A DNA stretch of 64,000 nt from a virus. The position numbers were made by a program, and so were the translations under genes. Every line of letters starts with the position of its first letter. Position 1 is the stretch's first letter. The DNA lies in IMG/VR virus record IMGVR_UViG_3300021963_005690, positions 1 through 64,000 of that record; one strand, given 5' to 3'. The notes below the pieces were generated by a model that was not told where the DNA came from, ran no database searches, and saw only the letters and a list, made by a program, of their open reading frames with translations. Shown in pieces: positions 26,563-39,336 of this stretch.

Positions 26563-26593
26563 AACCGGTATGCTGCCATTACACTAGGGAGAT
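26563..26593 (-). pseudogene. 5' half remnant of a tRNA (probably Trp)
   Basis: ATCTCCC-TAGTGTAATGGCAGCATA-CCGGTT: acceptor 5' strand, D-arm and anticodon 5' strand, then breaks off. Confidence 0.6.
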
Positions 26594-26598
26594 TTTGT

Positions 26599-26820
26599 TT
26601 ATAAATTTTTTCTAATACGTTTGAGATATTCTCGTCCAACAAGTCCTTGCTCAATTTCTTCTAATGCAGTTACCATTGGTCCTGATTTAGTATTGAGGGT
26701 AGAACGATGACCACGCTTTAATTCTCTTACTCTTTGTGATGCTATAAGAACTAAATCAAAACGATTACCAACCATGTTTGCGGCTTCTTCACTTGTATAT
26801 CTTGCTCTGCTTTGTGACAT
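26599..26820 (-). CDS. rpoZ: RNA polymerase omega subunit
   Basis: VGNRFDLVLIASQR.REL..G...ALEEI..G. Confidence 0.88.
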   Translation of the reverse strand: MSQSRARYTSEEAANMVGNRFDLVLIASQRVRELKRGHRSTLNTKSGPMVTALEEIEQGLVGREYLKRIRKNL

Positions 26821-26985
26821 ATTTTTCCTTTATCTTGTTACTTTTCTAATTAATTTATACCAATAGTATTTGAAACCACGGAACACTATGATATCAAAAG
26901 TAATTACAGGAGTAACTTCTTTTACAATGTGTCCGTATGCTCTATTGATTACATCTTCACTTTTGCTCATACTTACTCCTTTATT

Positions 26986-27061
26986 TGGTGGGTCGTGACA
27001 GGCTCGAACTGCCGACATTCTGCGTGTAAGGCAGACACTCTACCAACTGAGTTAACGACCC
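26986..27061 (-). tRNA. tRNA-Val(TAC)
   Basis: cloverleaf, loop CTTACAC, CCA. Confidence 0.95.
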
Positions 27062-27433
27062 GATTTTTAACCACCTTGGTTACTATCTTTAACTTCTGAT
27101 TGACTAGCAATTTTTTCAAATGCTTCATCTTCATTCTTTTGATCCTCAATTATTCTTGGATCAGGCTTACGAAAGATATTATCCCAGTTGTTATTAAACG
27201 TTTTTAAATCAACACTATAGGGTCTTGGTAAGCTACCTTTACTCATTTACTATTATCCTTACGAGAACTTGTACGTGAATTGCTTTTTTCAATCTCAACA
27301 TAACTACGAATAAAATCCCCACGTACATGTGCATCACGAATTAGTGTTGCCGCACGTTTAACTGCTTTAGGGATTTTAACTGCCCTTGAATCATAACCTC
27401 TACATGTCATACTATTTCCTTTTTAAAAATTAT

Positions 27434-27510
27434 TGGTCGGAATACAAGGATTCGAACCTTGGACCTCTTGCTCCCAAAGCAAGCGCACTACCAGGCTGTG
27501 CTACACTCCG
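27434..27510 (-). tRNA. tRNA-Pro(TGG)
   Basis: cloverleaf, loop TTTGGGA, CCA. Confidence 0.95.
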
Positions 27511-27512
27511 AA

Positions 27513-27662
27513 TTAACTTGGTATTATATGCGGTATATATGGAACATTACGTGGACCATGTCGTTGTTCAAGTAGTTTTTTAGCTTCTTGCACATTTGGT
27601 GCGTACACTTTGTCCTTCTTATCACCTTCCGGTGTTCTTACTGTTGCTTCATACATTGGCAT
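27513..27662 (-). CDS. small hypothetical protein (49 aa, MPMYEATV...)
   Basis: translated by hand; SD AGGAG. Confidence 0.55.
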   Translation of the reverse strand: MPMYEATVRTPEGDKKDKVYAPNVQEAKKLLEQRHGPRNVPYIPHIIPS

Positions 27663-27676
27663 ATAATTCTCCTATT

Positions 27677-27751
27677 TGGATGCGGGGGACGGATTCGCAC
27701 CGCCGATCTTCAGGTTATGAGCCTGATGAGTTACTACTTCTCCACCCCGCG
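27677..27751 (-). tRNA. tRNA-fMet(CAT), initiator type
   Basis: CGCGGGG start, C1:A72 mismatch, loop CTCATAA, CCA. Confidence 0.9.
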
Positions 27752-27759
27752 GTAATTAG

Positions 27760-27963
27760 TGAGACTGCTACTACACCACATAGCCCAATCTCTGAGTTGT
27801 TACACTGTCCATAACATTTATTCTTTTGGAAAGGTGTTATACCTCACCTAATGCGTTCCCGCCACTCCTTCACAGAGTACAGATGGTCAATGCACTACAT
27901 ACCTAGCACTTTCTTTGGTGACTGCCCCACCCACTTTATAACGTTAAAGTGTAAACGGGTTTC
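27760..27963 (-). ncRNA. structured ncRNA, manA-motif-like (copy A)
   Basis: about 200 nt non-coding; shares ordered blocks with 31405-31594. Confidence 0.55.
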
Positions 27964-27964
27964 T

Positions 27965-28040
27965 TGGTGGAGGAGACAGGGATCGAACCTGCGACCTACT
28001 GGTTGCAAACCAGTCGCTCTCCCAACTGAGCTACACCCCC
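27965..28040 (-). tRNA. tRNA-Ala(TGC)
   Basis: cloverleaf, G3:U70, CCA. Confidence 0.95.
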
Positions 28041-28049
28041 TAAATATTT

Positions 28050-28134
28050 TGGTGCCCTAGGTCGGACTCGAACCGACACATATTTCTACGCCAGAACCTA
28101 AATCTGGTGCGTCTACCAATTTCGCCACCAGGGC
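28050..28134 (-). tRNA. tRNA-Leu(TAG)
   Basis: long variable arm, loop TTTAGGT, CCA. Confidence 0.95.
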
Positions 28135-28197
28135 ATTTAACTATTATATTAGAAAACTATTTATCTGTCTAGTACTTTTGGGTAGCTAAATAAATTT

Positions 28198-28476
28198 ATG
28201 CTACAAAAGAAAGAACGTATACCTCTTAACCTACGCAGTAGAGTTATTGAAAGGGACGGTAAATGGTGTGTCTATTGTGATGAAGACTTGTCCGATAAAG
28301 AAATACACATGGATCATGTTATTGCTGAATCTAAAGGTGGAGAAACCACATACAACAATCTTCAAGTAACTTGTAGAAAATGTAATCTTGCTAAAGGTGT
28401 ATTAACTGAATCAGAATTTGTTGACCAGTTAAGAACCAGAGCAATGAACATTTTAAATAGAATTGGAGCGGGATAG
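28198..28476 (+). CDS. HNH endonuclease
   Basis: RD...CVYC..HMDHVI..KGG...NL...CRKCN..KG. Confidence 0.88.
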   Translation: MLQKKERIPLNLRSRVIERDGKWCVYCDEDLSDKEIHMDHVIAESKGGETTYNNLQVTCRKCNLAKGVLTESEFVDQLRTRAMNILNRIGAG

Positions 28477-28538
28477 CGGATTCGAACCGCTGACGAACAG
28501 CTTGGAAGGCTGACACTCTACCCCTGAGTTAATCCCGC
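28464..28538 (-). tRNA. tRNA-Gly(TCC)
   Basis: cloverleaf, loop CTTCCAA, CCA. Confidence 0.95.
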
Positions 28539-28543
28539 AAATT

Positions 28544-28621
28544 TGGAGCACAGAGTGAGATTTGAACTCACGGTTTTACGGATTTGCAATCCGTCGCATT
28601 TGACCACTCTGCCACCTGTGC
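28544..28621 (-). tRNA. tRNA-Cys(GCA)
   Basis: cloverleaf, loop TTGCAAA, U73, CCA. Confidence 0.92.
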
Positions 28622-28634
28622 ATATAAATACATT

Positions 28635-29180
28635 ATGAAATATTATTCACCTATCTATTTAGAAAATATTAAAATCATTCAAGAAAAGATTTTTGATGTA
28701 TTTCCTAAAACTGAATTATCAAGTAAAGAAAACTTATTCTATATACCTGATAATCTAAAATTATTTTTTGATATACCAGAATTAAAATCTGAATTAGATA
28801 ATATGAACTGGTCACAATATGTTCATTCGTTTGGTTTTTATGTAATTAACAAAACATACGGCACACCTATACATATTGATAGTGGTAATAGTCTTTATAG
28901 TTTTAATATACCAATACTAAATTGTAAAAATACTTTTGTTAATTTTTACAAAACAGATAAAGAACCTGTAAAGAAATCATATGTTACATATAACAAGATT
29001 ATAGACTATTATAGTTTTAATCCTACCGAATGTGTATTACAAGATAAATTAGAAATGACCACTCCACATGTCATAAAAGTCAAAGAGGTACATAATGTAA
29101 CTAACATTAACGATTTACCACGCATTACATTATTAATCAGATTAAAAAAAGAAATTAACTTGGATTACTTATTTCAATGA
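28635..29180 (+). CDS. cupin/2OG-Fe(II) oxygenase-like protein
   Basis: PIHID ... H.V.N...PR; start moved to ATG 28635 after TATAAATA. Confidence 0.55.
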   Translation: MKYYSPIYLENIKIIQEKIFDVFPKTELSSKENLFYIPDNLKLFFDIPELKSELDNMNWSQYVHSFGFYVINKTYGTPIHIDSGNSLYSFNIPILNCKNTFVNFYKTDKEPVKKSYVTYNKIIDYYSFNPTECVLQDKLEMTTPHVIKVKEVHNVTNINDLPRITLLIRLKKEINLDYLFQ

Positions 29181-29614
29181 AATATATAGAATACTTAGAT
29201 TTACCACCAGTACCCGAAAACTTAATTGAATCAATTACGGATATCATTAATAAGCCACCTAAAGCTTATAGTACAGTACCGGCTGAATATAACTTTTTCA
29301 AAACTAGAAATGTTAATGATGATTTAGCAGAATGGTTACAATCTATAGTTGAATACAAAATATATCCACAATATCAATTAATATATAACGGTTTACCTAT
29401 ACATATAGATAACGGTAACAGAATTAATGCCTATAACTATTTGTTAGATACAGGAGGAAAAAATGTTAAAACGGTTGTGTATAATGAAAACTACAAACCA
29501 TTACAAATTGAACAGCTTGAGCTAAAAAGATGGCACCGTATTAATACGGGCATGTTACACGGTGTTCATGGAATTGAACCTGATAAAGTTAGAGTTGCTA
29601 TTAGCATAACATAA
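29177..29614 (+). CDS. cupin/2OG-Fe(II) oxygenase-like protein
   Basis: LPIHID ... WH.I....HGV ... R.AIS. Confidence 0.55.
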   Translation: MKYIEYLDLPPVPENLIESITDIINKPPKAYSTVPAEYNFFKTRNVNDDLAEWLQSIVEYKIYPQYQLIYNGLPIHIDNGNRINAYNYLLDTGGKNVKTVVYNENYKPLQIEQLELKRWHRINTGMLHGVHGIEPDKVRVAISIT

Positions 29615-29632
29615 TCATTTATTTGTGCATAA

Positions 29633-29719
29633 AGCATATTGAAACACACTAACTACCTTGGTATGTACTAAAGTTCAATGAACCGCTACGACCCAATCTT
29701 TAATGTATTTCAATATGCT
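29633..29719 (-). ncRNA. long-stem-enclosed small RNA candidate
   Basis: about 20 bp terminal inverted repeat with G-U pairs on the minus strand. Confidence 0.45.
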
Positions 29720-29914
29720 CTGCATCCCCCGGCGGTAATTATAGTACAGAAAGATATGACGCTATCATACCCCTCACTCGTACCTTCCACCCGCTTCCCG
29801 ACAGGGACCGTTCTCGCATTGCTAGCGGCCTTTGGGTTTAAAGACTACCACCCGTAGTTGTCACACTACTTCTCATCGTGCGGGTCACACTATCCGAAGA
29901 CACTCGGAACGTTC
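29720..29914 (-). ncRNA. unidentified GC-rich structured RNA
   Basis: multiple hairpins plus long-range ACCCGC/GCGGGT pairing. Confidence 0.55.
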
Positions 29915-29929
29915 TTTTATAAATACAGT

Positions 29930-30112
29930 ATGGAACTACAAAACTGTATTGATGTTGTTGAAAAGTTGTTGCGTCAAAACAACCGTAAATATAAAGATAG
30001 CCACGAACAATTATTATATGAACGAGGCTACCTTACTGGTTTACTAGCTAGGATGATGAGTGATGACCCTCACATTTTACATCAAGTCATAAACAAAGCA
30101 AACCATCGCTAA
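29930..30112 (+). CDS. small hypothetical protein (60 aa)
   Basis: TATAAATA 4 nt upstream of ATG 29930. Confidence 0.55.
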   Translation: MELQNCIDVVEKLLRQNNRKYKDSHEQLLYERGYLTGLLARMMSDDPHILHQVINKANHR

Positions 30113-30113
30113 T

Positions 30114-30205
30114 TGGTGGAGACGGTGAGATTCGAACTCACGGTACATATTACTACATACGACAGGTTAGCAACCTGCTGCCTTAGGCCACTCGGCCACG
30201 TCTCC
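30114..30205 (-). tRNA. tRNA-Ser(GCT)
   Basis: long variable arm, loop TTGCTAA, CCA. Confidence 0.93.
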
Positions 30206-30211
30206 TATGTT

Positions 30212-30289
30212 TGGTGCCTCCACCTGGACTCGAACCAGGAACCTAGCGATTATGAGTCGCTTGCAACTAACCAATTGTGCTATAGAGGC
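30212..30289 (-). tRNA. tRNA-Ile2(CAT) (lysidine type; Met not excluded)
   Basis: anticodon arm AGCGA-CTCATAA-TCGCT typical of Ile2. Confidence 0.75.
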
Positions 30290-30294
30290 AATAA

Positions 30295-30909
30295 TCAAAT
30301 ACTCAACTCAAATTTATTTCGTTGAATATTTATTATATCTTGTTTTTGAACTACTAACAACTGTTCTGGGAATTGTACCCACTTTGCGGTGTCTCGTTCA
30401 GTCTTATATCCTTTGACTTCTACATACACTTTTTTTTCAGGCAAATAGAAATCAGGGAAATATGTTCTGGAGCCATTCCATTCATACGGAAATCCTTTTG
30501 TATTCCTAATACAAGGAATATTATTAGCGAGACACCATTTATAAAAATTAAGTTCCCAATTTCCTTGAAATTTAATTCCATTAAAAATAATTTGCTTTAC
30601 TCTTCCCCTATTAGAAGATGAGTATGCTTCTGGATTATTTTCAACTGCTTGTTTCATACTTGATGACAGTTTATTTTTAGATTCGTCAGACCAAACTCTA
30701 TTACGATTTGAATTACGAATAATATCTCTGCCTGTTTCCGTCATAGGAGTAGCAGTGCCTTTAATAAACTGATTACTACCTTGTTTCCCTAACATCCCCA
30801 TTGATGCTTTTTTAACTTTAGCATCAGGATTAGATTTACAATACAGTTCGTGTTGAGCCTTACTGTTGGGTGATTTTTCATCACGGTTACAAAAATTACA
30901 TTTTAACAT
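30295..30909 (-). CDS. PD-(D/E)xK-type endonuclease, probable homing endonuclease
   Basis: N-terminal Zn-finger-like CxxC..H...C; YFPDFYLP...YVEVKG. Confidence 0.75.
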   Translation of the reverse strand: MLKCNFCNRDEKSPNSKAQHELYCKSNPDAKVKKASMGMLGKQGSNQFIKGTATPMTETGRDIIRNSNRNRVWSDESKNKLSSSMKQAVENNPEAYSSSNRGRVKQIIFNGIKFQGNWELNFYKWCLANNIPCIRNTKGFPYEWNGSRTYFPDFYLPEKKVYVEVKGYKTERDTAKWVQFPEQLLVVQKQDIINIQRNKFELSI

Positions 30910-30952
30910 AAATGTATTTAGTCCTAAAGTTCATTGCTCTAACCTTCTATTT

Positions 30953-31037
30953 TGGTGCGAGTGCCCGGAATCGAACCGGGATGCCGTTAAGCGAGAGATT
31001 TTAAGTCTCTTGTGTCTACCTATTTCACCACACTCGC
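30953..31037 (-). tRNA. tRNA-Leu(TAA)
   Basis: long variable arm, loop CTTAAAA, CCA. Confidence 0.95.
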
Positions 31038-31097
31038 ATTATTGTTATCATTATATATCATACAATGATTGTAGTCAAATAATTTGGTCAACTAACT

Positions 31098-31172
31098 TGG
31101 CGGTCCCAGCGGGTAACGATCCCGCTCCTCATGCGTGACAGGCATGTATGCGTCCATGAACACTTTGAGACC
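31098..31172 (-). tRNA. tRNA-Asp(GTC)
   Basis: loop CTGTCAC, G73, CCA; atypical T-loop ATCGTTA. Confidence 0.88.
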
Positions 31173-31245
31173 TAACACTGAATAGGACACCCCTTTGGCC
31201 TAGGTCGTTTAAGAGTACGCCTGCCCAGCGACTCTCCTATATTCT

Positions 31246-31330
31246 TGGTGGAGATTACTGGGATCGAACCAGTCGTGCTATAAAGCGGCGGATTTACAAT
31301 CCACTGCATCACCATTGATGCTTCATCTCC
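31246..31330 (-). tRNA. tRNA-Tyr(GTA)
   Basis: long variable arm, loop TTGTAAA, CCA. Confidence 0.92.
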
Positions 31331-31404
31331 AAGATGAGTTACGGTTGCAAGACCTAGTGTCTCATTACTGAGAGAAGTGTCAGGGCGATGTAACTCAAAA
31401 AATT

Positions 31405-31594
31405 AGTATAAGCTACTGGGTTCCACGCCAGCCCTTAATTGAGCGGTTACTCTGTCCATCTCTTTTATTCTAACGTCTGTGTGCAGAGAGATACTGCCTA
31501 TCAGATTCAGAGGATTTCCCTCGCTAACGGTCTTCTGCCACCGGAACTCTATCGCTATTCAAACGCTATTTTAACGAAAATAGTAACGGGATTC
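31405..31594 (-). ncRNA. structured ncRNA, manA-motif-like (copy B)
   Basis: GAATCCCGTT ... AGAATAAA ... ATGGACAGAGTAACCGCTCA ... GGGCT...AGTAGC. Confidence 0.55.
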
Positions 31595-31596
31595 TT

Positions 31597-31671
31597 TGGA
31601 AGAGCATAGGAGAATCGAACTCCTCTTCTTAGGATGAAAACCTAATGTCCTAACCGATAGACGAATGCTCC
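31597..31671 (-). tRNA. tRNA-Glu(TTC)
   Basis: loop TTTTCAT, CCA. Confidence 0.9.
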
Positions 31672-31672
31672 A

Positions 31673-31800
31673 TGTTATTAGTTTTGCTGACGCACTATTT
31701 GCTATGCTCAACGGAATTGCCAGCTGGACGTACCGTTTATATACATAGTTAGTTAGAGTTGACGTTTACTCAGGCGCTTACATCAGCAAAACTAATAACA
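31673..31800 (-). ncRNA. long-stem-enclosed small RNA candidate
   Basis: perfect 18-bp inverted repeat TGTTATTAGTTTTGCTGA/TCAGCAAAACTAATAACA. Confidence 0.5.
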
Positions 31801-31801
31801 C

Positions 31802-32009
31802 ACTATATGAAAACACACTATGGGAACTACACTTCTAATATAAGACCGTCTCTTATATTTTTAGTTTTGTCATTACTTCCTACATACTCCGTCGCTTCTC
31901 CAGAGCCTAAGCCCCTATTTCATGTACTTAGCTTGAGCGTGGGCGGCCCCACAGTCCTCGCCTTAAGTACCTAACGGTGTAGGTAACCCTTAATATGTTT
32001 ACATATAGT
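31802..32009 (-). ncRNA. long-stem-enclosed structured RNA candidate (about 208 nt)
   Basis: terminal stem plus nested stems CCTACA/TGTAGG, CCGT/ACGG, GTACTTA/TAAGTAC. Confidence 0.5.
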
Positions 32010-32045
32010 CCCTGTAACTTAAACAGGGCTATATGATAACTTAAC

Positions 32046-32057
32046 TTTTTAAAGAAC
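32046..32057 (-). promoter_or_regulatory. boxA-like antitermination element
   Basis: GTTCTTTAAAAA downstream of promoter and a short hairpin. Confidence 0.55.
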
Positions 32058-32095
32058 TCTTTGCAACTGACTCTATCGTTTGTTGCTATGTGTCT

Positions 32096-32124
32096 ATTAT
32101 AACACCGTTTTGATTAATTGTCAA
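32096..32124 (-). promoter_or_regulatory. sigma70 promoter inside tRNA array (P2-like)
   Basis: TTGACA-17 nt-TATAAT. Confidence 0.8.
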
Positions 32125-32177
32125 ATTCTTTTTTGTGTCTCTGTTTCCAAGAACTTCTTCAATCAATCTATACATAG

Positions 32178-32206
32178 AGTATAGCACTATTTGGATTTAT
32201 TGTCAA
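32178..32206 (-). promoter_or_regulatory. sigma70 promoter inside tRNA array (P1-like)
   Basis: TTGACA-17 nt-TATACT. Confidence 0.75.
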
Positions 32207-32235
32207 ACTATTAGTTGTTGTAAATAAACAACATT

Positions 32236-32310
32236 TGGTCCGGGGTACAGGAATCGAACCTGTATTGACTGCTTAGAAGGCAGCTGTATTATCCATTATA
32301 CTAACCCCAG
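32236..32310 (-). tRNA. tRNA-Arg(TCT)
   Basis: loop CTTCTAA, CCA. Confidence 0.93.
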
Positions 32311-32379
32311 ATAAATTTTCAACTTGTCTCTATTGAAGTAGAATTTTGATTTATTGTCAACCTATTACTAAATATCTCT

Positions 32380-33009
32380 ATGATATCATTGTTAAACTTA
32401 CCCAAACCATCTAATGCGGTGTTAGATATGGTCACTCATAACATCAATACATTACAAATAAACAACTCCTCAAAAAAATATTTTGATGGTTCTCAACACA
32501 ATAAAATGAACTGTATTGCAGGTCAAACCTTTGTATGCGATATTCCTATATATTTACAACTTTTTAAAGAGTTTAAATTTTATATTACTGATAGATTTCA
32601 AGCTAGTATTGGCATATTTAAAAATGTTGATACTAGTAAACTATCGTACTTGCCACCGCATATTGATAATGTACGAACACTAAGTTTAAATTATGTTATT
32701 AGTGAAGGAGGAAAAAATGTATTGACTACTATGTACAAAACTACTGCACAAAACGTAACTAAAAGTGCTATTCAAATGGAACTATATGACAATTTAGAAA
32801 TAGATGTTGCAGTAAAAACAGTTGCTAATAACTGGTATGCAATAGATATTCAAAACTATCATAGTGTTGACCATATTGAAAATCAACGTGTTATTCTAAC
32901 GTTAAGTTTTAATCATATAAACTATGATTATTTTACAAGCAAATATGAACATTTGCTTGTAAAAGATTGGCTCCCCAGGATGGGATCGAACCACCGACAC
33001 CCTGATTAA
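32380..33009 (+). CDS. cupin/2OG-Fe(II) oxygenase-like protein
   Basis: LPPHID ... NY..GG ... WY.ID....HSV; related to 29177-29614. Confidence 0.55.
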   Translation: MISLLNLPKPSNAVLDMVTHNINTLQINNSSKKYFDGSQHNKMNCIAGQTFVCDIPIYLQLFKEFKFYITDRFQASIGIFKNVDTSKLSYLPPHIDNVRTLSLNYVISEGGKNVLTTMYKTTAQNVTKSAIQMELYDNLEIDVAVKTVANNWYAIDIQNYHSVDHIENQRVILTLSFNHINYDYFTSKYEHLLVKDWLPRMGSNHRHPD

Positions 33010-33043
33010 CAGTCAGGTGCAACTGCCGCTGTGCTACTGGGGA
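32968..33043 (-). tRNA. tRNA-Asn(GTT)
   Basis: loop CTGTTAA, CCA. Confidence 0.93.
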
Positions 33044-33050
33044 ATAAATT

Positions 33051-33131
33051 TGGGGCAGGGTTCAAACCTACCGCGTTACATACCGTTATCGTTGTAACTC
33101 TGCACTATGTTATAGCCATTGTGTGCCTGCG
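33051..33131 (-). ncRNA. tRNA-like three-hairpin element
   Basis: ends in T-arm-like GGTAGG-TTTGAAC-CCTGCC followed by CCA. Confidence 0.4.
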
Positions 33132-33137
33132 TTTTCT

Positions 33138-33212
33138 TGGTGCCCCAGGTTAGAATCGAACTAACTACCTACCGCTTACAAGGCGGGTGCTCTACCAGTG
33201 AGCTACAAGGGC
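33138..33212 (-). tRNA. tRNA-Thr(TGT)
   Basis: loop CTTGTAA, CCA. Confidence 0.93.
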
Positions 33213-33237
33213 ATTGTTTATTTAATAGTATTATACA

Positions 33238-33798
33238 CTAGCTTAATAATATTCTACTATGTTTTGGAACACCTGCTAACAAATATTCCATTTGGTCAGC
33301 AAGAATTGTTCTATGTTGTAGAATCATATTCTCGTAGTGATTAGGTACATAAGGTGTATATAGTAATTCCATACGCACTTCTTTCAAACTCTTATGTCCT
33401 TTTTTGCTGTTACAATCTTTACATGCTGTAACAACATTCATCCAAGTGTTTTCACCGCCCTTACTTCTAGGGACAATGTGGTCACGACTTAATAGATGAT
33501 AGTTAGGAAAGTGTTCGCCGCAATAAGCACATACATGTCTATCACGACCAAACAATGTTTTATTAGTTAGTGCTACACATGAGTGTTTGTATGGATTAAA
33601 TCCGTGACCTTTGATAGCAATGATACTACTAGCTTCTAAGTAACTTAGTGTACCGTCATTTTGTATGCCACCACGATATCTAGCCACAATATTACCCATT
33701 GACCATGCTATGGCATCTTTTGCTTTATAGGTAATTGCGTCATCATTTGAGATCCATTGCCGGGGAACTCCCGAGATATCTAGTGCTAATACTGACAC
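33238..33798 (-). CDS. HNH endonuclease family protein
   Basis: LFGRD...CAYCG..SRDHIVP.SKGG..W.NVVTAC..CN..KG; SD AAGGAG. Confidence 0.9.
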   Translation of the reverse strand: MSVLALDISGVPRQWISNDDAITYKAKDAIAWSMGNIVARYRGGIQNDGTLSYLEASSIIAIKGHGFNPYKHSCVALTNKTLFGRDRHVCAYCGEHFPNYHLLSRDHIVPRSKGGENTWMNVVTACKDCNSKKGHKSLKEVRMELLYTPYVPNHYENMILQHRTILADQMEYLLAGVPKHSRILLS

Positions 33799-33848
33799 GA
33801 CAAACTCCTTAAAAAAAAGATAAATAAGTATATCACAAAGGGTACACT

Positions 33849-34514
33849 ATGTCTATTTACACAGGTAACAATTATAGAAAAATTTATGAGTCACACTTTG
33901 GTCCCATACCAAAAGACGACCAGGAAAGATCATATGAAATACATCACATTGATGGTAATCGCAAAAATAATGACCCTTCAAATCTACAGTGCCTCGCTAT
34001 TCAAGAGCATTATAACATACATTTTAATCAATCAGATTGGGGCGCATGTTATTTAATTGCTAGAAAAATGAAACTGTCGCCAGAAGAATTGTCAACCTTA
34101 TCTAAAAAAGTTAATCAACAAAGAATACAAACAGGCGAACATCAATTCTGTGGGGATAAGAACCCGCAAAAACAAGAATATAATCGTATTAAATCATCTA
34201 AGAAGATGAAAGCACAATATGAAACAGTTTGGAAAAATAATCCTGAAAACAAAAAAATGCGCTCAGTGTGGGGCAAAAAAGGTTCTGAATTTATGAAGTC
34301 TGCTGAAGGTAGATTACTGGCTTCTAGCAAAACACAATCAAAAAATCCAAATTACGACCATACGATTCTCACATTTGAACACACTGAAACAAATACACAA
34401 TTCACAGGAACTATGTACGACTTTAGAACAAAATTCATGTTACGACAGTCATCAGTGAGTATGGTTGTTGCCGGTAAGCGACAAACAGTTTCTGGTTGGA
34501 AACTTGTCATCTGA
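33849..34514 (+). CDS. HNH homing endonuclease
   Basis: YRKIYE.H.GPIP..YEIHHIDGN..NN...NL....EH..IH; C-terminal HTH-like GW motif. Confidence 0.85.
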   Translation: MSIYTGNNYRKIYESHFGPIPKDDQERSYEIHHIDGNRKNNDPSNLQCLAIQEHYNIHFNQSDWGACYLIARKMKLSPEELSTLSKKVNQQRIQTGEHQFCGDKNPQKQEYNRIKSSKKMKAQYETVWKNNPENKKMRSVWGKKGSEFMKSAEGRLLASSKTQSKNPNYDHTILTFEHTETNTQFTGTMYDFRTKFMLRQSSVSMVVAGKRQTVSGWKLVI

Positions 34515-34539
34515 CTGTCTACATTTATTTAATGCCAAG

Positions 34540-34614
34540 TGGCGGGTCCTGTAGGAATTGAACCCACATCCCGAAGTTCGAAGCATCGTATTCTATCCAT
34601 TGAACTAAGGACCC
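34540..34614 (-). tRNA. tRNA-Arg(TCG)
   Basis: loop CTTCGAA, one mismatch in anticodon stem, CCA. Confidence 0.85.
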
Positions 34615-34770
34615 GATAAAGGTGGGAGCCTAACTATCTTATTGTTAGTAAGCCTCGTTAGATTGTCTCGTATAGGCAAGTTTACACACCCGTCAATCAT
34701 ACTATAGTGTCATCACAGTTAACCCCACTGTGACTAGATTGACAGGGACTCAAACCTATCGTCTATCCCA
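34615..34770 (-). ncRNA. unidentified structured RNA candidate
   Basis: nested stems CTGTCAATC/GATTGACGG and TCACAGT/ACTGTGA; no ORF. Confidence 0.4.
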
Positions 34771-34774
34771 TAAC

Positions 34775-34848
34775 TGGCAGAGGGTACAAGAATCGAACTT
34801 GTGATCTCGGAATCAAAATCCGATGTTATGCCATTTAACTAACCCCCA
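34775..34848 (-). tRNA. tRNA-Gln(TTG)
   Basis: loop TTTTGAT, G73, CCA. Confidence 0.92.
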
Positions 34849-34865
34849 ATAATCTTGCTAAATAA

Positions 34866-35501
34866 TTGATGTTTAATATTACAAAAACCCCAATCTTAAT
34901 TATTTCATCACCTAGAACAGGAAGTTCAGTGTTAGGTTCATATCTACAAACTTTGTGTGACGTGCCTTACTTTAAAGAACCTGATTACACCGGCGGCAAA
35001 GAAATGACTGACTTTTATGATTATTTCTCTCAGTCAAAAAACTTTATTCTTAAATTCCATTATATCCATTTAAATAGATACAGAAGCGATATATCCAATT
35101 ATCTTATTGAAAATTCTTATAAAATAAGAATTAGAAGAAAAAATATTGTTGAACAAATTGCAAGTTTTTACATTGCGACTGAAAGAGATTTTAAGTGGCA
35201 TTTTAGAAACACCGATCAACTAAATTTAGTTGACACTCTTAACATTGATATAGCAAAAATTAAACAAAATATTTTATATATTAAATACGCAAATTATAGA
35301 TTAAACTCAGCACCTATTAAGTTTGATTTAGACTTATATTACGAAGACTTACCCAAAATAAATGATGTAAATTATTATATTGTTCCTAAACCTTCTAACT
35401 ATAATGAGTTGTTATCTACGATAACAGAATTGGTACCGCCACCTGGATTTGAACCAGAGACCTACGCCTTATCAAGGCGGTGCTCTACCACTGAGCTATA
35501 G
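34866..35501 (+). CDS. sulfotransferase-fold (Stf0-like) protein
   Basis: SSPRTGSS PAPS-binding loop, R.NIVEQIAS, YYEDL. Confidence 0.6.
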   Translation: MMFNITKTPILIISSPRTGSSVLGSYLQTLCDVPYFKEPDYTGGKEMTDFYDYFSQSKNFILKFHYIHLNRYRSDISNYLIENSYKIRIRRKNIVEQIASFYIATERDFKWHFRNTDQLNLVDTLNIDIAKIKQNILYIKYANYRLNSAPIKFDLDLYYEDLPKINDVNYYIVPKPSNYNELLSTITELVPPPGFEPETYALSRRCSTTEL

Positions 35502-35505
35502 CGGT
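35431..35505 (-). tRNA. tRNA-Ile(GAT)
   Basis: loop TTGATAA, CCA. Confidence 0.93.
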
Positions 35506-35509
35506 GAAT

Positions 35510-35584
35510 TGGTGGATGTAAGTAGATTTGAACTACTAACCTATTCCGTATGAAGGAATTGCACTACCCTTGTGCTATACATCC
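35510..35584 (-). tRNA. tRNA-Met(CAT), elongator type
   Basis: loop TTCATAC, paired 1:72, CCA. Confidence 0.85.
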
Positions 35585-35585
35585 A

Positions 35586-35662
35586 TGGGGTGCTTGATGG
35601 GATTTGAACCCACGCATATCGGAATCACAATCCGAGGTCTTAACCGCTTGACGACAAGCACC
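35586..35662 (-). tRNA. tRNA-His(GTG)
   Basis: G-1:C73, loop TTGTGAT, CCA. Confidence 0.93.
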
Positions 35663-35668
35663 GTATAT

Positions 35669-35760
35669 TGGTAGAAACGGTGAGATTCGAACTCACGGGA
35701 CCATTGCTGATCCGTCTGATTTCAAGTCAGGTGCATTAAACCGGGCTCTGCCACGTTTCC
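35669..35760 (-). tRNA. tRNA-Ser(TGA)
   Basis: long variable arm, loop CTTGAAA, CCA. Confidence 0.93.
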
Positions 35761-35768
35761 TTTTATTA

Positions 35769-35844
35769 TGGTAGGACCAGGGCGGTTCGAACGCCCGACC
35801 AACGGATTAAAAGTCCGCTGCTCTACCGACTGAGCTATGGTCCC
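35769..35844 (-). tRNA. tRNA-Lys(TTT)
   Basis: loop CTTTTAA, CCA. Confidence 0.95.
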
Positions 35845-35850
35845 ATATAT

Positions 35851-35927
35851 TGGTGCGACCGGAAGGACTTGAACCTCCGACTCCCTATTTCGTAGACAGG
35901 TACTCTAATCCACTGAGTTACGGTCGC
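35851..35927 (-). tRNA. tRNA-Arg(ACG)
   Basis: loop CTACGAA, CCA. Confidence 0.93.
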
Positions 35928-36008
35928 ATTCTAAAACACACATAGTACACTCTAGTCATCAAAGTTGCCCTCTTGGCCTTATTTTCCACTATGTATGCTT
36001 TAGAATGC
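35926..36008 (-). ncRNA. long-stem-enclosed small RNA candidate
   Basis: about 21 bp terminal stem GCATTCTAAAGCATACATAGT/ACTATGTGTGTTTTAGAATGC. Confidence 0.45.
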
Positions 36009-36153
36009 CGTGTATCTCTACACGACATGATAGGGTCAATACCCTACCCAGTAGTCTTACTAACATGTTGTCTCCATGCTTTCATATATACTGTCCGCCC
36101 ATTCTATACATTTTGCGCTGTATTACGGCTCTCGTTGCCTATTCACGCTGTCA

Positions 36154-36321
36154 TCAATCAGTGTAAGTCAGTTGGTTAACTTTCTTAGTAGCCTCATGAT
36201 GGACTCTAGCACGTTCAAGTTTATTTTCTATCAACTGTGCTACTTGTTCCTTAGTCAAAACATGATTGCTAAACCAATCTTGTTTGTTTTCAGAAGTTTT
36301 GTATTGTATCTGTTCATCCAT
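36154..36321 (-). CDS. small hypothetical protein (55 aa, MDEQIQYK...)
   Basis: translated by hand; directly downstream of the attenuator terminator. Confidence 0.35.
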   Translation of the reverse strand: MDEQIQYKTSENKQDWFSNHVLTKEQVAQLIENKLERARVHHEATKKVNQLTYTD

Positions 36322-36331
36322 TTATTGTCAA
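36303..36331 (-). promoter_or_regulatory. sigma70 early promoter downstream of the terminator
   Basis: TTGACA-ataaatggatgaacaga-TACAAT. Confidence 0.7.
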
Positions 36332-36342
36332 ATCCTCTCTGT

Positions 36343-36382
36343 AAAAGCAAAAACCCCTGAGACTTTTTAGTTCCCAGGGGTT
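36343..36382 (-). terminator. intrinsic terminator of putative attenuator
   Basis: AACCCCTGGGAACT-AAAA-AGTCTCAGGGGTT followed by TTTGCTTTT. Confidence 0.85.
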
Positions 36383-36426
36383 AGATAAATGTAGTTATGA
36401 TGTTAACTTGTTACCTAGTCCCCGGG
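36373..36426 (-). promoter_or_regulatory. antiterminator hairpin
   Basis: CCCGGGGACTAGGTAA pairs with TTATCTAACCCCTGGG (14 of 16 incl. two G-U); inner stem AGTTA/TAACT. Confidence 0.7.
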
Positions 36427-36548
36427 CCATGTTCTTGTGAATCATTATTGCCGCGAATACTTGTTGGATATGCTGGTACAAAGGATACACTGGCTAATGA
36501 CAGCCACTGTCCGGTATGTTTCAACATGTTACAAGTTTTATTCATCAT
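36411..36548 (-). CDS. putative attenuator leader peptide (45 aa, all 20 amino acids)
   Basis: MMNKTCNMLKHTGQWLSLASVSFVPAYPTSIRGNNDSQEHGPGTR*; 33 distinct codons; TAAATA box 7 nt upstream. Confidence 0.7.
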   Translation of the reverse strand: MMNKTCNMLKHTGQWLSLASVSFVPAYPTSIRGNNDSQEHGPGTR

Positions 36549-36624
36549 AGTCTTTTATTTAGTCCTGGTTTTAAATTAGTGTAAACAACGGATGTTTTTT
36601 ACACCTTTTCTCAATTCATGCTGA

Positions 36625-36653
36625 AGTATAGCACGGTTTTGAATTAATGTCAA
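36625..36653 (-). promoter_or_regulatory. sigma70 promoter upstream of the leader ORF
   Basis: TTGACA-17 nt-TATACT. Confidence 0.75.
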
Positions 36654-36697
36654 ACTTTCGTTCGCCCATTTTTGCAATTATTTTTTAATACTTATTG

Positions 36698-38203
36698 TTA
36701 AATTTGTCTGTGGGCAAGCTTTTTTGCAATATAGGTTTTTATTATGTATCTTAAATTATTATGAACTTTACCTTCATCGTCTATTACAACCACTGGTTCT
36801 TCCCTCATTTCTGTTATAGGATTTTTATTATCATACAAGCCTTTTATTGATTCATTAAATTTAGTTTGAAGTTCACTTGCTAATTTAGAAGCTGATGAGT
36901 TTGACATATGTTCTGTTTTCCACTGCAAATTTTTGTATAAAATTTTGTTAGTAATTGTATATCCATATTTTTCTGGATTGGATGCAAACTTACTAGAGAA
37001 CATTCTACCTTCTGAATTACGAATTCCCAAAGAACCAACTTTTACATGTTGAGTAAGCGTAGGATTATCAATGAACCATTGAACTGTATCTCTTGCAGTT
37101 TCTTCAGTGTCATGGGGTAGGCCTAATATTAAATTAATTTGAAATTTATTATCGGGAAATCGTTCTCTTAATTGTAATAAAAATGATTTTAATTTGTTGG
37201 GATCAGCTCCTTTACCAACAGCCTTACCACTATCTCGGTTGAAAGTTTCAACACCAAATGTCATTGACCTCCAACCTATTTCAGAAATTAAATCAACTTG
37301 TTCAGTTTTGGATGCAAGCAAATCTAATCTACAATATGCCCAAAATTGAAAATCAATGTTAGTTTCTTCTCTAATTTCTTTAATCATTTGCATTTTTTCA
37401 ATGCTATCGTTAAATGTATCGTCTACAAAAATAAATCTAGTAGATCCATACTGGGTGTACCTATCTACTATATCTCTTTTAATACTTTCTTTATCACGAA
37501 TGTAGGTTCCTAGTTTTTTACCCAGATGGGCAAATTCACAAAAAGCACAATGAAAAATGCAACCTCTACCTATCTCTATAGGAAATACTTCATTGTCACT
37601 TATAAAATCAGTATAATCATAGTTTGTTTCTAGATCGGACAAATCAGTTATCGGGTAATCACGATCACTGTTTACCACTTGCATTCCGTTATATGATTCA
37701 CTAATCAAAGTACCGTTGTTAACCAGATAATTATGTATTGCAATTACAGAGACATCGGAATATCCCATACATACAATATCAAAATCACTTGTCATGTGTC
37801 TAACTAGTTCTGCGTTAGGACCGCCCAATACAAGTTTTTTCTTTCTACTTTTTATATATGAAATTAATTTGTTTTCTCCTTCTACAGAAAAACGAGTGAA
37901 TAATCCTGAACCTTCTATATTTCGTTGTGTTAGATAACTTTGTACACTAAATCCGGGTTGATAGAACTTAGTACTGAATCCAAACCATTCAATGTTTTCA
38001 ATACTATCTAGATATTTAAACAATATATCTAGATCCCAGTGTGATAGGTAATCTATCACTTCTACCTCTAAACCCTGTCTGCGTAATACTGTGGCGATCC
38101 TATAAATCCCAATGGATCTGTTAGGCACGTTAGGACTTTCATTGAATAATATAATCATTTTTTTATTTGTTGTAGTTAAGAATATGTTCCTAAATAATGC
38201 CAT
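36698..38203 (-). CDS. B12-binding-domain radical SAM enzyme
   Basis: GGPN, RGCIFHCAFC, FVDDTFN, GVETF, LGLP.DT; true start may be 38158. Confidence 0.85.
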   Translation of the reverse strand: MALFRNIFLTTTNKKMIILFNESPNVPNRSIGIYRIATVLRRQGLEVEVIDYLSHWDLDILFKYLDSIENIEWFGFSTKFYQPGFSVQSYLTQRNIEGSGLFTRFSVEGENKLISYIKSRKKKLVLGGPNAELVRHMTSDFDIVCMGYSDVSVIAIHNYLVNNGTLISESYNGMQVVNSDRDYPITDLSDLETNYDYTDFISDNEVFPIEIGRGCIFHCAFCEFAHLGKKLGTYIRDKESIKRDIVDRYTQYGSTRFIFVDDTFNDSIEKMQMIKEIREETNIDFQFWAYCRLDLLASKTEQVDLISEIGWRSMTFGVETFNRDSGKAVGKGADPNKLKSFLLQLRERFPDNKFQINLILGLPHDTEETARDTVQWFIDNPTLTQHVKVGSLGIRNSEGRMFSSKFASNPEKYGYTITNKILYKNLQWKTEHMSNSSASKLASELQTKFNESIKGLYDNKNPITEMREEPVVVIDDEGKVHNNLRYIIKTYIAKKLAHRQI

Positions 38204-39336
38204 TTTGTAGCAGTAGGTAAAAACTCTCCATTTTCCATAATACTAGGGATAGAACGGTCTAACATGTTATCGTATGATTTCCAATAATATCTCCATTTTG
38301 CCTTTAGATCAGCAAGCTCAGGTAACGTTTCAATTATTACATCACCCGGTCGCATATCGCTTTTTATACCCCATGAAGGTTTTTCTACTTGAAACTTATT
38401 TTTATCCCATGTTGAGTACAATACTGTACCTGTCAGGTCACAAAATTTTTGCCACTTGGCATGTCCAACTGTATGACCTTGACCAGGCATCTTTTGAATT
38501 ACATATCTTAAATCTTTGTTAATGTCAAAAAATTTAAAAGTTTTGTATGCCATTTCCCATGCTAACTCTGGCATGTCAGGTGACCAATAAAAATACTCAG
38601 TACCATTAGGATTGTGAATTGTAGGACTTGATATAACCATTGGCTTATCTTTAAGATTCATATAGACTTTATCGCCGGATTCTGTTCCTAACGATATTAG
38701 TCTAGGTTTATCGATTCCCCACATTAGAGCTACACTTTTTCCTTTATCTAACATCTCTCGTTCACCTGGATCCACCGCAAAGTTAGCAGACCTAAGCATA
38801 CTACCTAAAAAGTAACCACCCCTAGGATCTATAAACGAATCTTCTTTTAAAGAATTCATAGCAGATTCATCTAACCAATCTAATAATACTATTTTAGTAT
38901 ACGGATGATTTGTTGATACCCATTCAAGCATTGGTTTTATTGTAAAATCCCATTCGCTGTATCGGTTTAATTGTGAAGTATCGTTTTGATTTGGTTTATG
39001 AATATTATTATTTAACGCACTAAAAGGTAGTCTGACTGTTATTTGATCTAACTTAATGTTATTGTTAAGGTAAGTCATCAAAATGTTATGACTATCTGAA
39101 CCACCACTGTAGTTTAGTATAAGATAGTCATACGCATCTCTTAGTTGTAACGCTCGTTGCTTATAGAAAAAATCTAGAGGAAATTTTCCTAAATGTTCTC
39201 TGTTTACCTTTTCAAAGATATCCTCATGATAAAACCAATATATTGGTTGTTTATTTTTTGAGGCTGCAATGTGCGCTAACATACAGCTATAATGTTTTTC
39301 TTCTCCTACTAAGTAATATCCATATTTGGTAAACAT
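38176..39336 (-). CDS. PP-loop (ATP pyrophosphatase-like) protein
   Basis: RA.QLRD.YDYLILNYSGGSDS; GIDKP; EYFYWS. Confidence 0.65.
   Translation of the reverse strand: MFTKYGYYLVGEEKHYSCMLAHIAASKNKQPIYWFYHEDIFEKVNREHLGKFPLDFFYKQRALQLRDAYDYLILNYSGGSDSHNILMTYLNNNIKLDQITVRLPFSALNNNIHKPNQNDTSQLNRYSEWDFTIKPMLEWVSTNHPYTKIVLLDWLDESAMNSLKEDSFIDPRGGYFLGSMLRSANFAVDPGEREMLDKGKSVALMWGIDKPRLISLGTESGDKVYMNLKDKPMVISSPTIHNPNGTEYFYWSPDMPELAWEMAYKTFKFFDINKDLRYVIQKMPGQGHTVGHAKWQKFCDLTGTVLYSTWDKNKFQVEKPSWGIKSDMRPGDVIIETLPELADLKAKWRYYWKSYDNMLDRSIPSIMENGEFLPTATKWHYLGTYS

What the first reader, a model, noticed from the sequence alone, without database searches (positions are those of the whole stretch)
36343..36653. 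Candidate pan-tRNA-sensing attenuator: a leader peptide with all 20 amino acids gating the phage tRNA operon
Seen: on the minus strand at the head of the 25-tRNA array, in order, a sigma70 promoter (36625-36653), a TAAATA late-type box, a 45-codon ORF (36548-36411) and an intrinsic terminator (36382-36343). The ORF reads MMNKTCNMLKHTGQWLSLASVSFVPAYPTSIRGNNDSQEHGPGTR. It contains every amino acid and 33 distinct codons, spread across synonymous sets: Leu TTG/CTG/TTA, Ser TCA/AGT/TCC, Gly GGA/GGC/GGG, Thr ACT/ACC/ACA, Gln CAG/CAA, Pro CCA/CCG, Arg CGC/AGG, Ala GCC/GCA. Many end in G/C although the genome is AT-rich. The last codons plus stop (CCCGGGGACTAGGTAA) pair 14 of 16 with TTATCTAACCCCTGGG, which includes the terminator's 5' arm, so the two folds exclude each other. 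Established: trp/his-type attenuators use this logic but carry runs of one amino acid. Inference: a ribosome reaching the stop covers the antiterminator and transcription stops. A stall at any earlier codon, for example after host anticodon nucleases cut a tRNA or during starvation, frees the antiterminator and the phage tRNA set is transcribed. I do not know of a described attenuator that samples the whole tRNA pool.
Basis: partly seen in the sequence, partly recalled or inferred. Interest (0 to 1): 0.97.

Follow-up and report, generated by a model that had tools for sequence, protein, structure and literature searches.

The report
All-amino-acid leader attenuator before phage tRNAs
Uncultured freshwater phages carry, at the head of their tRNA gene arrays, a short translated leader that always encodes all 20 amino acids and whose last codons can block a transcription terminator, so it looks like a switch that reads the cell's whole translation supply.

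Summary
The promoter, the 45-codon ORF and the terminator are at the stated coordinates.

The element is a conserved family. I collected about 170 related loci from viral and freshwater metagenome contigs. The frame is open in all 122 distinct coding sequences, and all indels are in frame.

- **All 20 amino acids:** 109 of 122 distinct peptides contain all 20. A column-shuffle null gives 35 ± 4, and 0.75% of 45-residue windows in this genome do. When Cys, His, Trp, Phe, Tyr, Asp or Glu is lost from its usual column, it reappears elsewhere.
- **Antiterminator:** the last codons pair with the terminator's 5' arm (-20.9 versus -18.6 kcal/mol). This is the best partner in all 119 units, and it covaries as strongly as the terminator does.
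- **Output:** a second sigma70-type promoter follows the terminator, so the tRNAs are not gated by it alone. The start codon of a conserved 55-aa gene lies inside that promoter, so that gene needs read-through.
the peptide has conserved motifs, and the codon diversity mostly follows from the amino-acid diversity.

I read it as a ribosome-dependent attenuator with a new sensing logic. No experiment has tested this. I found no description of it in the literature.

The parts
36625..36653 (-). P1, sigma70-type promoter TTGACA-17-TATACT with a TG extension
   Evidence: 11 of 12 matches. A P1-like promoter lies within 140 nt upstream of the box in 128 of 130 related loci. L001 has three in tandem.
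36578..36605 (-). 5' leader hairpin (transcript positions 14-41). Its sequence varies and it is absent from some relatives.
36555..36567 (-). Invariant box CAGGACTAAATAA, 7 nt before the ATG. It contains an AGGA 14 nt from the start codon. It can pair with AUUUAUCU just 5' of the terminator, or through CCAGG with CCUGG of the terminator's 5' arm, where it is the second-best partner.
   Evidence: GACTAAATA occurs 4 times in the 83.5-kb genome, each time just upstream of a same-strand ORF.
36411..36548 (-). Leader ORF of 45 codons plus stop, encoding all 20 amino acids.
36487..36510 (-). Covarying hairpin inside the ORF (transcript 109-132), around the Trp codon.
   Evidence: Examples: pair 111/130 UA:43 AU:33 UG:14; pair 116/125 CG:49 UA:19 UG:14.
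36450..36461 (-). Region 1, AGUAUUCGCGGC (the S-I-R-G codons). It can pair with region 2 at -11.1 kcal/mol. It is invariant, so there is no covariation evidence either way.
36411..36426 (-). Region 2, the antiterminator 5' strand: CCCGGGGACUAGGUAA (last five codons plus stop).
36373..36388 (-). Region 3, the antiterminator 3' strand: UUAUCUAACCCCUGGG. It overlaps the terminator's 5' arm.
36343..36382 (-). Intrinsic terminator: a bulged 13-bp hairpin plus a U-tract.
36396..36414 (-). Conserved post-stop segment GUAACAAGUUAACAUCAUA. In the terminated RNA it pairs with the start region, AUGAUG...ACUUGUAAC (36549-36528).
36303..36331 (-). P2, sigma70-type promoter TTGACA-17-TACAAT, directly after the terminator.
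   Evidence: 104 of 120 loci. RNA contigs from three or more metatranscriptome studies end at 36274-36280, a weak hint that a transcript starts here.
36154..36321 (-). orf55, a conserved 55-aa helical protein. Its start codon lies inside the P2 spacer and its SD lies just upstream of the P2 -35, so the full ORF is present only on P1 read-through transcripts.
35851..35927 (-). First tRNA of the array (Arg-ACG).
   Evidence: A same-strand tRNA lies within 1300 nt of the leader stop in 62 of 68 related loci.

Best explanation
I read this as a ribosome-dependent transcription attenuator. Host RNA polymerase starts at the strong promoter P1 and a ribosome translates the 45-codon leader behind it.

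As the RNA emerges, the last codons plus stop (region 2) pair with the sequence that includes the terminator's 5' arm (region 3). This antiterminator lets the polymerase run on into orf55 and the first tRNA cluster.

Only a ribosome that has reached the last ~6 codons or the stop covers region 2. In the long-form relatives it instead sits in the antiterminator loop. The terminator hairpin then forms and the transcript ends.

Every amino acid is encoded upstream of that point. Shortage or destruction of any aminoacyl-tRNA, or any general slowing of elongation, should therefore increase read-through.

The output specific to read-through is translation of orf55, whose start codon is missing from transcripts made at the downstream promoter P2. 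Read-through also adds transcription of the tRNAs.

Shown: the architecture, its conservation, the coding constraint, the all-20 selection signature, and the competing helices with their covariation.

Inferred: that the ORF is translated, that stalling controls termination, what is sensed, and what orf55 does.
For: 1. Family and coding.
- 31 IMG/VR loci were found by peptide patterns, at least 118 metagenome loci by a frame-blind DNA pattern, and 40 loci through orf55 alone.
- The leader frame is open in 122 of 122 distinct coding sequences. The other sense frames are never open.
- The ATG-to-AGTATTCG distance takes 7 values, all multiples of 3, in 132 of 132 units.

2. Completeness.
- 109 of 122 distinct peptides have all 20 amino acids. 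The column-shuffle null gives 35.4 +/- 4.4, with a maximum of 50 in 2000 shuffles.
- Background 45-residue windows reach all 20 in 0.75% of cases.
- The neighbouring orf55 family has 16-19 distinct amino acids and never 20.
- When a residue is lost from its home column it appears elsewhere: His 9 of 10 (at 8 different alignment columns), Cys 7 of 10, Trp 1 of 1 (moved ~27 residues), Phe 11 of 12, Tyr 20 of 20, Asp 59 of 62, Glu 73 of 73. The rates of an extra copy when the home residue is kept are 2-32%.
- All 39 leaders found through orf55 have all 20, including a further Cys relocation.

3. The switch.
- Antiterminator -20.9, terminator hairpin -18.6, region 1:2 -11.1 kcal/mol.
- The nascent RNA (positions 1-252) folds with the antiterminator. 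A ribosome mask up to codon 37 spares it, and a mask from codon 40 onward destroys it.
- In all 119 units the best upstream partner of the terminator's 5' arm lies at the ORF's 3' end. Mean energies are -19.2 (short forms) and -23.0 (long forms), against -17 for the terminator.
- Covariation: AGGUAA/UUAUCU, GAAUAA/UUAUUC, GUUUCAUA/UAUGAAAC. L040 shows a three-way change in regions 2, 3 and 4.
- Pair counts: antiterminator 87.8% paired, covariation score 0.143 against 0.094 in shuffles (0 of 500 reach it), slid controls 24-70% paired. The terminator scores 92.9% and 0.133 against 0.064.

4. Position.
- Same-strand tRNAs follow in 62 of 68 loci.
- The upstream gene varies between loci.
- The leader and terminator precede orf55 in 39-40 of 40 loci.

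5. Placement of residues. In every peptide that has all 20 (114 of 124 distinct ORF-plus-3'-flank sequences), all 20 lie upstream of, or within 2 codons of, the antiterminator's 5' edge. The last codons never carry a unique residue.
Against: - There is no experimental evidence of translation, stalling or regulated termination.
- The AGGA is 14 nt from the ATG, whereas this genome's SDs sit at 5-8 nt.
- A conserved promoter P2 directly after the terminator would transcribe the tRNAs regardless.
- With the full transcript at equilibrium, the terminator fold is favoured by 2-8 kcal/mol at all stall positions tested except codon 37. The outcome would have to be kinetic. If the region 1:2 pairing acts as it does in trp, early stalls could terminate rather than read through.
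- The peptide has strongly conserved motifs (W, FxPxYPTSIRG, PG). This suggests a function of the peptide itself, or of the RNA sequence encoding it.
- Rare residues such as C, W, H, F and Y are the best-conserved residues in ordinary protein families too, so part of the completeness is inherited.
- Synonymous-codon diversity is not significant for the window (P = 0.22).
- The box and region 1 were part of the metagenome search pattern, so their invariance in loci L034 and later is by construction.
Confidence: 0.6

Rival explanations
1. It is an ordinary small-protein gene with its own promoter and terminator. The 43-59-aa peptide is the functional product, for example a regulator or a ribosome-arrest-type nascent peptide. 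The structured mRNA and the pairing of its 3' end with the terminator arm serve mRNA stability or translational autoregulation, not control of downstream genes.
For: - The peptide has conserved blocks.
- It has its own strong promoter and a strong terminator, followed by another promoter.
- In the terminated RNA, the start codon pairs with the post-stop segment.
- The W...IRG...PG pattern loosely recalls arrest peptides such as SecM and TnaC. This is my own recollection and was not tested.
Against: - It does not explain why residues relocate so that all 20 are kept.
- It does not explain why the terminator's 5' arm always has its best partner in the last codons, with covariation.
- It does not explain why orf55's start codon is placed where only read-through transcripts contain it.
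- Variable columns are not concentrated at third codon positions (14/13/22), so much of the conservation is at RNA level.
Confidence: 0.2
2. The roughly 275-nt terminated transcript is mainly a trans-acting small RNA with dual function, like rnTrpL in Sinorhizobium. The ORF is secondary.
For: - The transcript folds with z = -3.35.
- Helices covary.
- Long stretches are invariant at the nucleotide level.
- Attenuator-derived sRNAs are known (PMC6614838, listed; abstract only read).
Against: - The frame is open and indels are in frame in all variants.
- There is a selection signature on the amino-acid set.
- No target was sought or found, and there is no Rfam family.
- This reading is compatible with the attenuator reading rather than exclusive of it.
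Confidence: 0.1
3. The peptide is a RiPP precursor modified by the adjacent radical-SAM enzyme (36698-38203).
For: In the window, a 501-aa radical-SAM protein (Pfam PF04055) ends about 150 nt upstream of the small ORF.
Against: A close homologue of the radical-SAM gene lies directly upstream only in the window and in L001/L033, which are one contig. In the other loci the upstream genes differ, while the tRNA array and orf55 downstream are constant.
Confidence: 0.02

Closest known systems
Ribosome-mediated transcription attenuators of amino-acid operons (trpL, hisL, pheL, thrL, ilvL)
   Same: A promoter-proximal short ORF, an intrinsic terminator, and a mutually exclusive antiterminator whose formation depends on where the leading ribosome is. 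A possible region 1:2 hairpin is also present.
   Different: - There is no run of one amino acid. Every amino acid is encoded, mostly once or a few times.
- The ORF runs through the antiterminator strand itself.
- The antiterminator (-20.9) is much stronger than the 1:2 pairing (-11.1), so read-through looks like the default state.
- The controlled genes are a phage 55-aa protein and tRNAs, not a biosynthetic operon.
Leader-peptide attenuators induced by translation inhibitors (ermC-type, and the bmrCD and vmlR/msrD-type found by Term-seq)
   Same: A generic slowing or stalling of the ribosome in a leader ORF raises expression of the downstream gene.
   Different: Those elements respond to drug-bound ribosomes, often at specific peptide motifs, and show no requirement for a complete amino-acid set. 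They are host genes, not phage genes. This comparison rests on my own knowledge and on the abstracts listed.
T-box riboswitches
   Same: They sense tRNA charging and act through a terminator/antiterminator switch.
   Different: T-boxes bind one specific uncharged tRNA directly and need no translation. No T-box or any other Rfam family matches here.
Phage tRNA sets as a counter-measure to tRNA-cleaving defences (T5 tRNA-Lys against PARIS; anticodon-loop variants)
   Same: The context is a large phage tRNA array that could replace damaged host tRNAs (PMC11464382, listed).
   Different: Those studies concern the tRNAs themselves. I found no description of a translation-coupled switch at the head of such an array.

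Membership tests
Ribosome-mediated (leader-peptide) transcription attenuator | A short ORF between the promoter and the first regulated gene, kept as a reading frame. | tested here: met
   The frame is open in 122 of 122 distinct coding sequences and indels are in frame in 132 of 132 units.
Ribosome-mediated (leader-peptide) transcription attenuator | An intrinsic terminator downstream of the ORF. | tested here: met
   A hairpin of -18.6 kcal/mol plus a U-tract; 92.9% of cells paired, with covariation.
Ribosome-mediated (leader-peptide) transcription attenuator | An antiterminator that excludes the terminator and overlaps the part of the RNA occupied by a ribosome finishing the ORF. | tested here: met
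Ribosome-mediated (leader-peptide) transcription attenuator | Regulatory codons enriched for the amino acid(s) of the controlled pathway. | tested here: not met
   There is no run of any one amino acid. Instead all 20 are present. This is the point of difference.
Ribosome-mediated (leader-peptide) transcription attenuator | Read-through changes with ribosome stalling. | not testable with these tools
   This needs a reporter, in-vitro coupled transcription-translation, or Term-seq.
T-box riboswitch | A specifier loop, the conserved T-box sequence and a stem I platform. | tested here: not met
   An Rfam cmscan at E <= 1 finds only tRNAs and chance hits in 25000-39000.
RiPP precursor peptide | Conserved co-location with its modifying enzyme. 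| tested here: not met
   A close homologue of the radical-SAM gene lies directly upstream only in the window and in L001/L033, which are one contig.
Type I toxin mRNA | A small hydrophobic membrane peptide with an antisense RNA. | tested here: inconclusive
   The peptide has no transmembrane-length hydrophobic stretch (sequence). No antisense promoter was sought specifically, and the antisense frame is open in only 62 of 122.

The most novel reading that the evidence does not exclude
The module is an inducible counter-defence switch. When host anticodon nucleases or other tRNA-depleting defences, or starvation, remove any one tRNA species, the ribosome stalls in the all-20 leader. The antiterminator then persists, and the phage switches on orf55, an unknown effector, together with extra copies of its own replacement tRNAs. 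Translation of the leader by the restored pool then shuts the switch off again. This would be a homeostat for the whole decoding set.
Probability: 0.25. Interest if true: 0.95.

Novelty: new variant of a known kind. Interest (0 to 1): 0.86.

Why it matters
Leader-peptide attenuators are textbook devices, but every described one that I know of reads one or a few amino acids. A leader under selection to contain every amino acid would be a sensor of total decoding capacity, which is a new regulatory logic.

It sits where it makes biological sense: in front of phage tRNA arrays, whose regulation and purpose are still debated (codon supply or defence evasion). It would also give those arrays a testable control circuit and point to a conserved unknown 55-aa protein as its dedicated output.

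The family is abundant in freshwater viromes, with more than 120 sequence variants. The idea is directly testable with a cell-free system lacking single amino acids.

Tried and rejected
- **Rfam:** nothing matches the element.
- **INPHARED phages:** no DNA or protein match to the region, the radical-SAM gene or the leader peptide. The family has no cultured representative in that collection.
- **RNAalifold on the plain MAFFT alignment:** it returned only the terminator, because indels misalign the ORF.
- **First terminator-arm detection:** it mis-placed the arms in many sequences and was replaced by the method.
- **First forced-pair energy run:** it used distal pairs shifted by one position and is void. 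One search replaces it.
- **Metatranscriptomes:** no RNA contig covered the leader at 88% or higher identity. Contigs cannot show absence, so nothing is concluded from this.
- **The search for related loci with the broad peptide alignment:** A DNA pattern was used instead.
- **PHROGs and Pfam:** nothing for orf55, the leader or most large ORFs.
- **AlphaFold model of orf55:** one short and one long helix, pLDDT 76. This is too simple for a fold search, so none was run.
- **RiPP-precursor idea:** rejected on synteny.
- **Codon-diversity/isoacceptor claim:** not significant once the amino-acid sequence is fixed.
- **Equilibrium folding with ribosome masks:** it does not discriminate between stall positions.

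Full report
**What is there.**
On the minus strand the window holds, in order:
- a near-consensus sigma70 promoter, P1 (36653-36625, 11 of 12 matches with a TG extension);
- a ~70-nt leader with a hairpin;
- an invariant 13-nt box, CAGGACTAAATAA (36567-36555);
- a 45-codon ORF (36548-36411);
- a conserved 29-nt spacer;
- a bulged 13-bp hairpin followed by UUUUUGCUUUU (36382-36343; -18.6 kcal/mol).

ARAGORN finds 24 tRNAs and Rfam adds one. The first, Arg-ACG, ends at 35927. No Rfam family matches the element. The P1-to-terminator transcript folds unusually well, at -71.1 kcal/mol with z = -3.35.

**It is a large, conserved family.**
The INPHARED phage collection has nothing similar. The element was found in other collections in three ways:
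- IMG/VR holds 31 loci, found with peptide patterns.
- A frame-blind DNA pattern (the box plus AGTATTCGNGG) found at least 118 metagenome loci, mostly from lakes.
- A search with the neighbouring small protein alone found 40 IMG/VR loci.

One hit lies on a 13.5-kb contig binned into a 'Neisseriaceae bacterium' MAG. The ribonucleotide reductase of this phage is closest to those of Xanthomonas, Ralstonia and Stenotrophomonas phages, at 54-59% identity. Most large ORFs have no PHROG match. This is an uncultured lineage, probably infecting proteobacteria.

The architecture is constant across loci:
- a P1-like promoter in 128 of 130;
- a second sigma70-like promoter, P2, right after the terminator in 104 of 120;
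- a same-strand tRNA within 1300 nt in 62 of 68 (median 486 nt).

The gene upstream varies. The radical-SAM gene that neighbours the element in the window does so on only one other contig. That rules out a RiPP-precursor reading.

**The ORF is coding.**
- All 122 distinct coding sequences are open, at 43-59 codons. The two other sense frames are never open, and one antisense frame is open in only 62.
- The distance from the ATG to the conserved AGTATTCG takes seven values, all multiples of three, in 132 of 132 units.
- Much of the conservation is nevertheless at RNA level. Among close relatives, variable columns split 14/13/22 by codon position, and long stretches are invariant in all three positions.
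- A hairpin inside the ORF covaries while the encoded residues change.

**Every amino acid is kept.**
- Of 122 distinct peptides, 109 contain all 20 amino acids, 11 contain 19 and 2 contain 18.
- Shuffling residues within alignment columns gives 35.4 +/- 4.4, with a maximum of 50 in 2000 shuffles.
- In this genome's ORFs, 0.75% of 45-residue windows contain all 20.
- The adjacent 55-aa protein family has 16-19 distinct amino acids and never 20.

The most telling evidence is relocation:
- When His is missing from its usual column it is found elsewhere in 9 of 10 peptides, at eight different alignment columns. When the usual His is kept, an extra His occurs in 14 of 112.
- Cys is found elsewhere in 7 of 10, against 2 of 112.
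- The one peptide without the usual Trp has a Trp ~27 residues further on.
- Phe is found elsewhere in 11 of 12, Tyr in 20 of 20, Asp in 59 of 62 (against 4 of 60), and Glu in 73 of 73 (against 4 of 49).

The 39 leaders found through orf55 alone all have 20 amino acids and include another Cys relocation.

These sequences are related, so the counts are not independent events. Rare residues are also well conserved in ordinary proteins. Ordinary conservation does not, however, predict that a lost residue reappears elsewhere.

- 33 codons is rare among random windows (0.6%), but expected given the amino-acid sequence (30.9 +/- 2.0, P = 0.22).
- The family shows a modest excess, 35.3 observed against 31.1 expected.

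**The switch.**
Region 2 (CCCGGGGACUAGGUAA, the last five codons plus stop) pairs with region 3 (UUAUCUAACCCCUGGG, which includes the terminator's 5' arm) at -20.9 kcal/mol. The terminator hairpin is -18.6, and a possible region 1:2 pairing is -11.1.

Folding the nascent RNA up to the terminator loop gives the antiterminator as the minimum-energy state. Masking a ribosome footprint at codons up to 37 leaves it intact. Masking from codon 40 onward removes it.

Across all 119 unique units, the best upstream partner of the terminator's 5' arm is at the ORF's 3' end:
- In short forms it is centred 10 nt before the stop, with a mean of -19.2 kcal/mol.
- In long forms it is centred 30 nt before the stop, with a mean of -23.0. 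There a terminating ribosome would sit in the antiterminator loop.
- The terminators average about -17.
- The second-best partner is the 5' box, at about -10.

The distal half of the antiterminator covaries: AGGUAA/UUAUCU, GAAUAA/UUAUUC, GUUUCAUA/UAUGAAAC and UAAGUAAAC/GUUUAUUUA. One locus (L040) changes regions 2, 3 and 4 together.

On an alignment of 87 short forms:
- The antiterminator is 87.8% paired, with covariation score 0.143 against 0.094 in shuffles (0 of 500 reach it). Slid controls are 24-70% paired.
- The terminator gives 92.9% and 0.133 against 0.064.
- The antiterminator is therefore as well supported as the terminator.

In every peptide that has all 20 amino acids, all 20 lie upstream of, or within two codons of, the antiterminator's 5' edge. 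The last codons never carry a unique residue.

**What it controls.**
P2 (36331-36303) follows the terminator directly. The start codon of the conserved 55-aa ORF (ATG at 36321, TTG in some relatives) lies inside the P2 spacer, and its Shine-Dalgarno sequence lies just upstream of the -35. P2 transcripts therefore lack that start codon, and only P1 read-through RNA can encode the full protein.

orf55 shows a clear synonymous-substitution pattern (read from the alignment). It has 177 or more homologue clusters, none carrying a functional annotation. It is predicted to be mostly one long helix.

The leader and terminator precede orf55 in 39-40 of 40 loci found through orf55. The three parts therefore form one module.

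RNA contigs from four metatranscriptome runs, from at least three studies, cover 36089-36280. Their upper edges lie at 36274-36280, about 16 nt below the predicted P2 start. This is a weak hint that P2 is active. The tRNA array also has further consensus promoters inside it.

The element therefore does not by itself gate the tRNA operon. It can add P1-driven transcription, and it is required for orf55.

**Caveats on mechanism.**
- With the whole transcript at equilibrium, the terminator fold is favoured by 2-8 kcal/mol at all stall positions tested except codon 37. As in classical attenuators, the outcome must be kinetic.
- If the invariant region 1 (the S-I-R-G codons) acts as an anti-antiterminator or pause hairpin, as in trp, then stalls early in the ORF might not give read-through. 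That would sit badly with a pan-sensor.
- The AGGA is 14 nt from the ATG, whereas this genome's SDs lie at 5-8 nt.
- The box GACTAAATA occurs four times in the 83.5-kb genome, each time just upstream of a same-strand ORF. It may therefore be a phage promoter or a translation signal as well as an RNA-pairing element.
- The conserved peptide blocks could mean that the nascent peptide itself matters.
- The box and region 1 were in the metagenome search pattern, so their invariance there is by construction. They are, however, also present in the loci found through peptide patterns or orf55.

**Literature.**
Five full-text searches found no description of a leader peptide with a complete amino-acid set or of an attenuator at phage tRNA arrays. 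The only earlier notes of this scan on this genome are unchecked first-reader notes.

**Verdict.**
The feature is real, conserved and under selection. It is best read as a ribosome-dependent attenuator with a new sensing logic (confidence about 0.6). Its sure output is a conserved unknown 55-aa protein, and its possible output is extra tRNA transcription. It is a new variant of a known kind and well worth bench tests.

Noticed in passing
window 36154-36331 (-): The start codon of the conserved 55-aa ORF lies inside the spacer of a consensus sigma70 promoter, and its SD lies upstream of the -35. This arrangement is kept in most related loci (ATG or TTG at the same place).
   Followed up: yes
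window 36089-36149 (-): Metatranscriptome contigs pile up on a ~60-nt piece between orf55 and the first tRNA (summed depth 245 in run X15, against 2-22 beside it). This may be a stable processed RNA. L001 has a conserved counterpart.
   Followed up: no
window 12915 (+), 47433 (-), 30925 (-), 36566 (-): (A/G)GACTAAATA occurs four times in the 83.5-kb genome, each time 5-28 nt upstream of a same-strand ORF start. It is a candidate phage-specific promoter or translation signal. At 47433, AGGACU pairs with AGUCCU just before the ATG.
   Followed up: partly
window 36605-36618 (-); L001 5500-5700: The start of the P1 transcript carries a conserved CAUGAAUUGA/CAUGAAUUAA, a three-codon ATG-AAT-stop mini-ORF. 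L001 has three tandem copies of the promoter plus this initial sequence.
   Followed up: no
window 38176-39336 (-) and relatives: A 386-aa protein with a PP-loop motif (SGGSDSH) has no Pfam or PHROG hit. Diverged paralogues (25-45% identity) lie upstream of the leader in several related loci, sometimes in two copies (L030).
   Followed up: no
window 31249-31330 (-): A tRNA-like gene found by Rfam (35.4 bits) but not by ARAGORN. ARAGORN finds no tRNA-Phe or tRNA-Tyr in the window.
   Followed up: no
L160 and L174 (IMGVR_UViG_3300027749_002876, 524,565 bp): One very long 'viral' contig carries two leader-terminator-orf55 modules about 290 kb apart, with different leader sequences. It is either a very large phage with two tRNA arrays or a chimeric assembly.
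   Followed up: no
L152 (CANEUJ010000032.1): The only hit in the species-representative genome collection is a 13.5-kb contig of a MAG labelled Neisseriaceae bacterium. It is probably a phage contig binned with a bacterium, and possibly a hint about the host.
   Followed up: no
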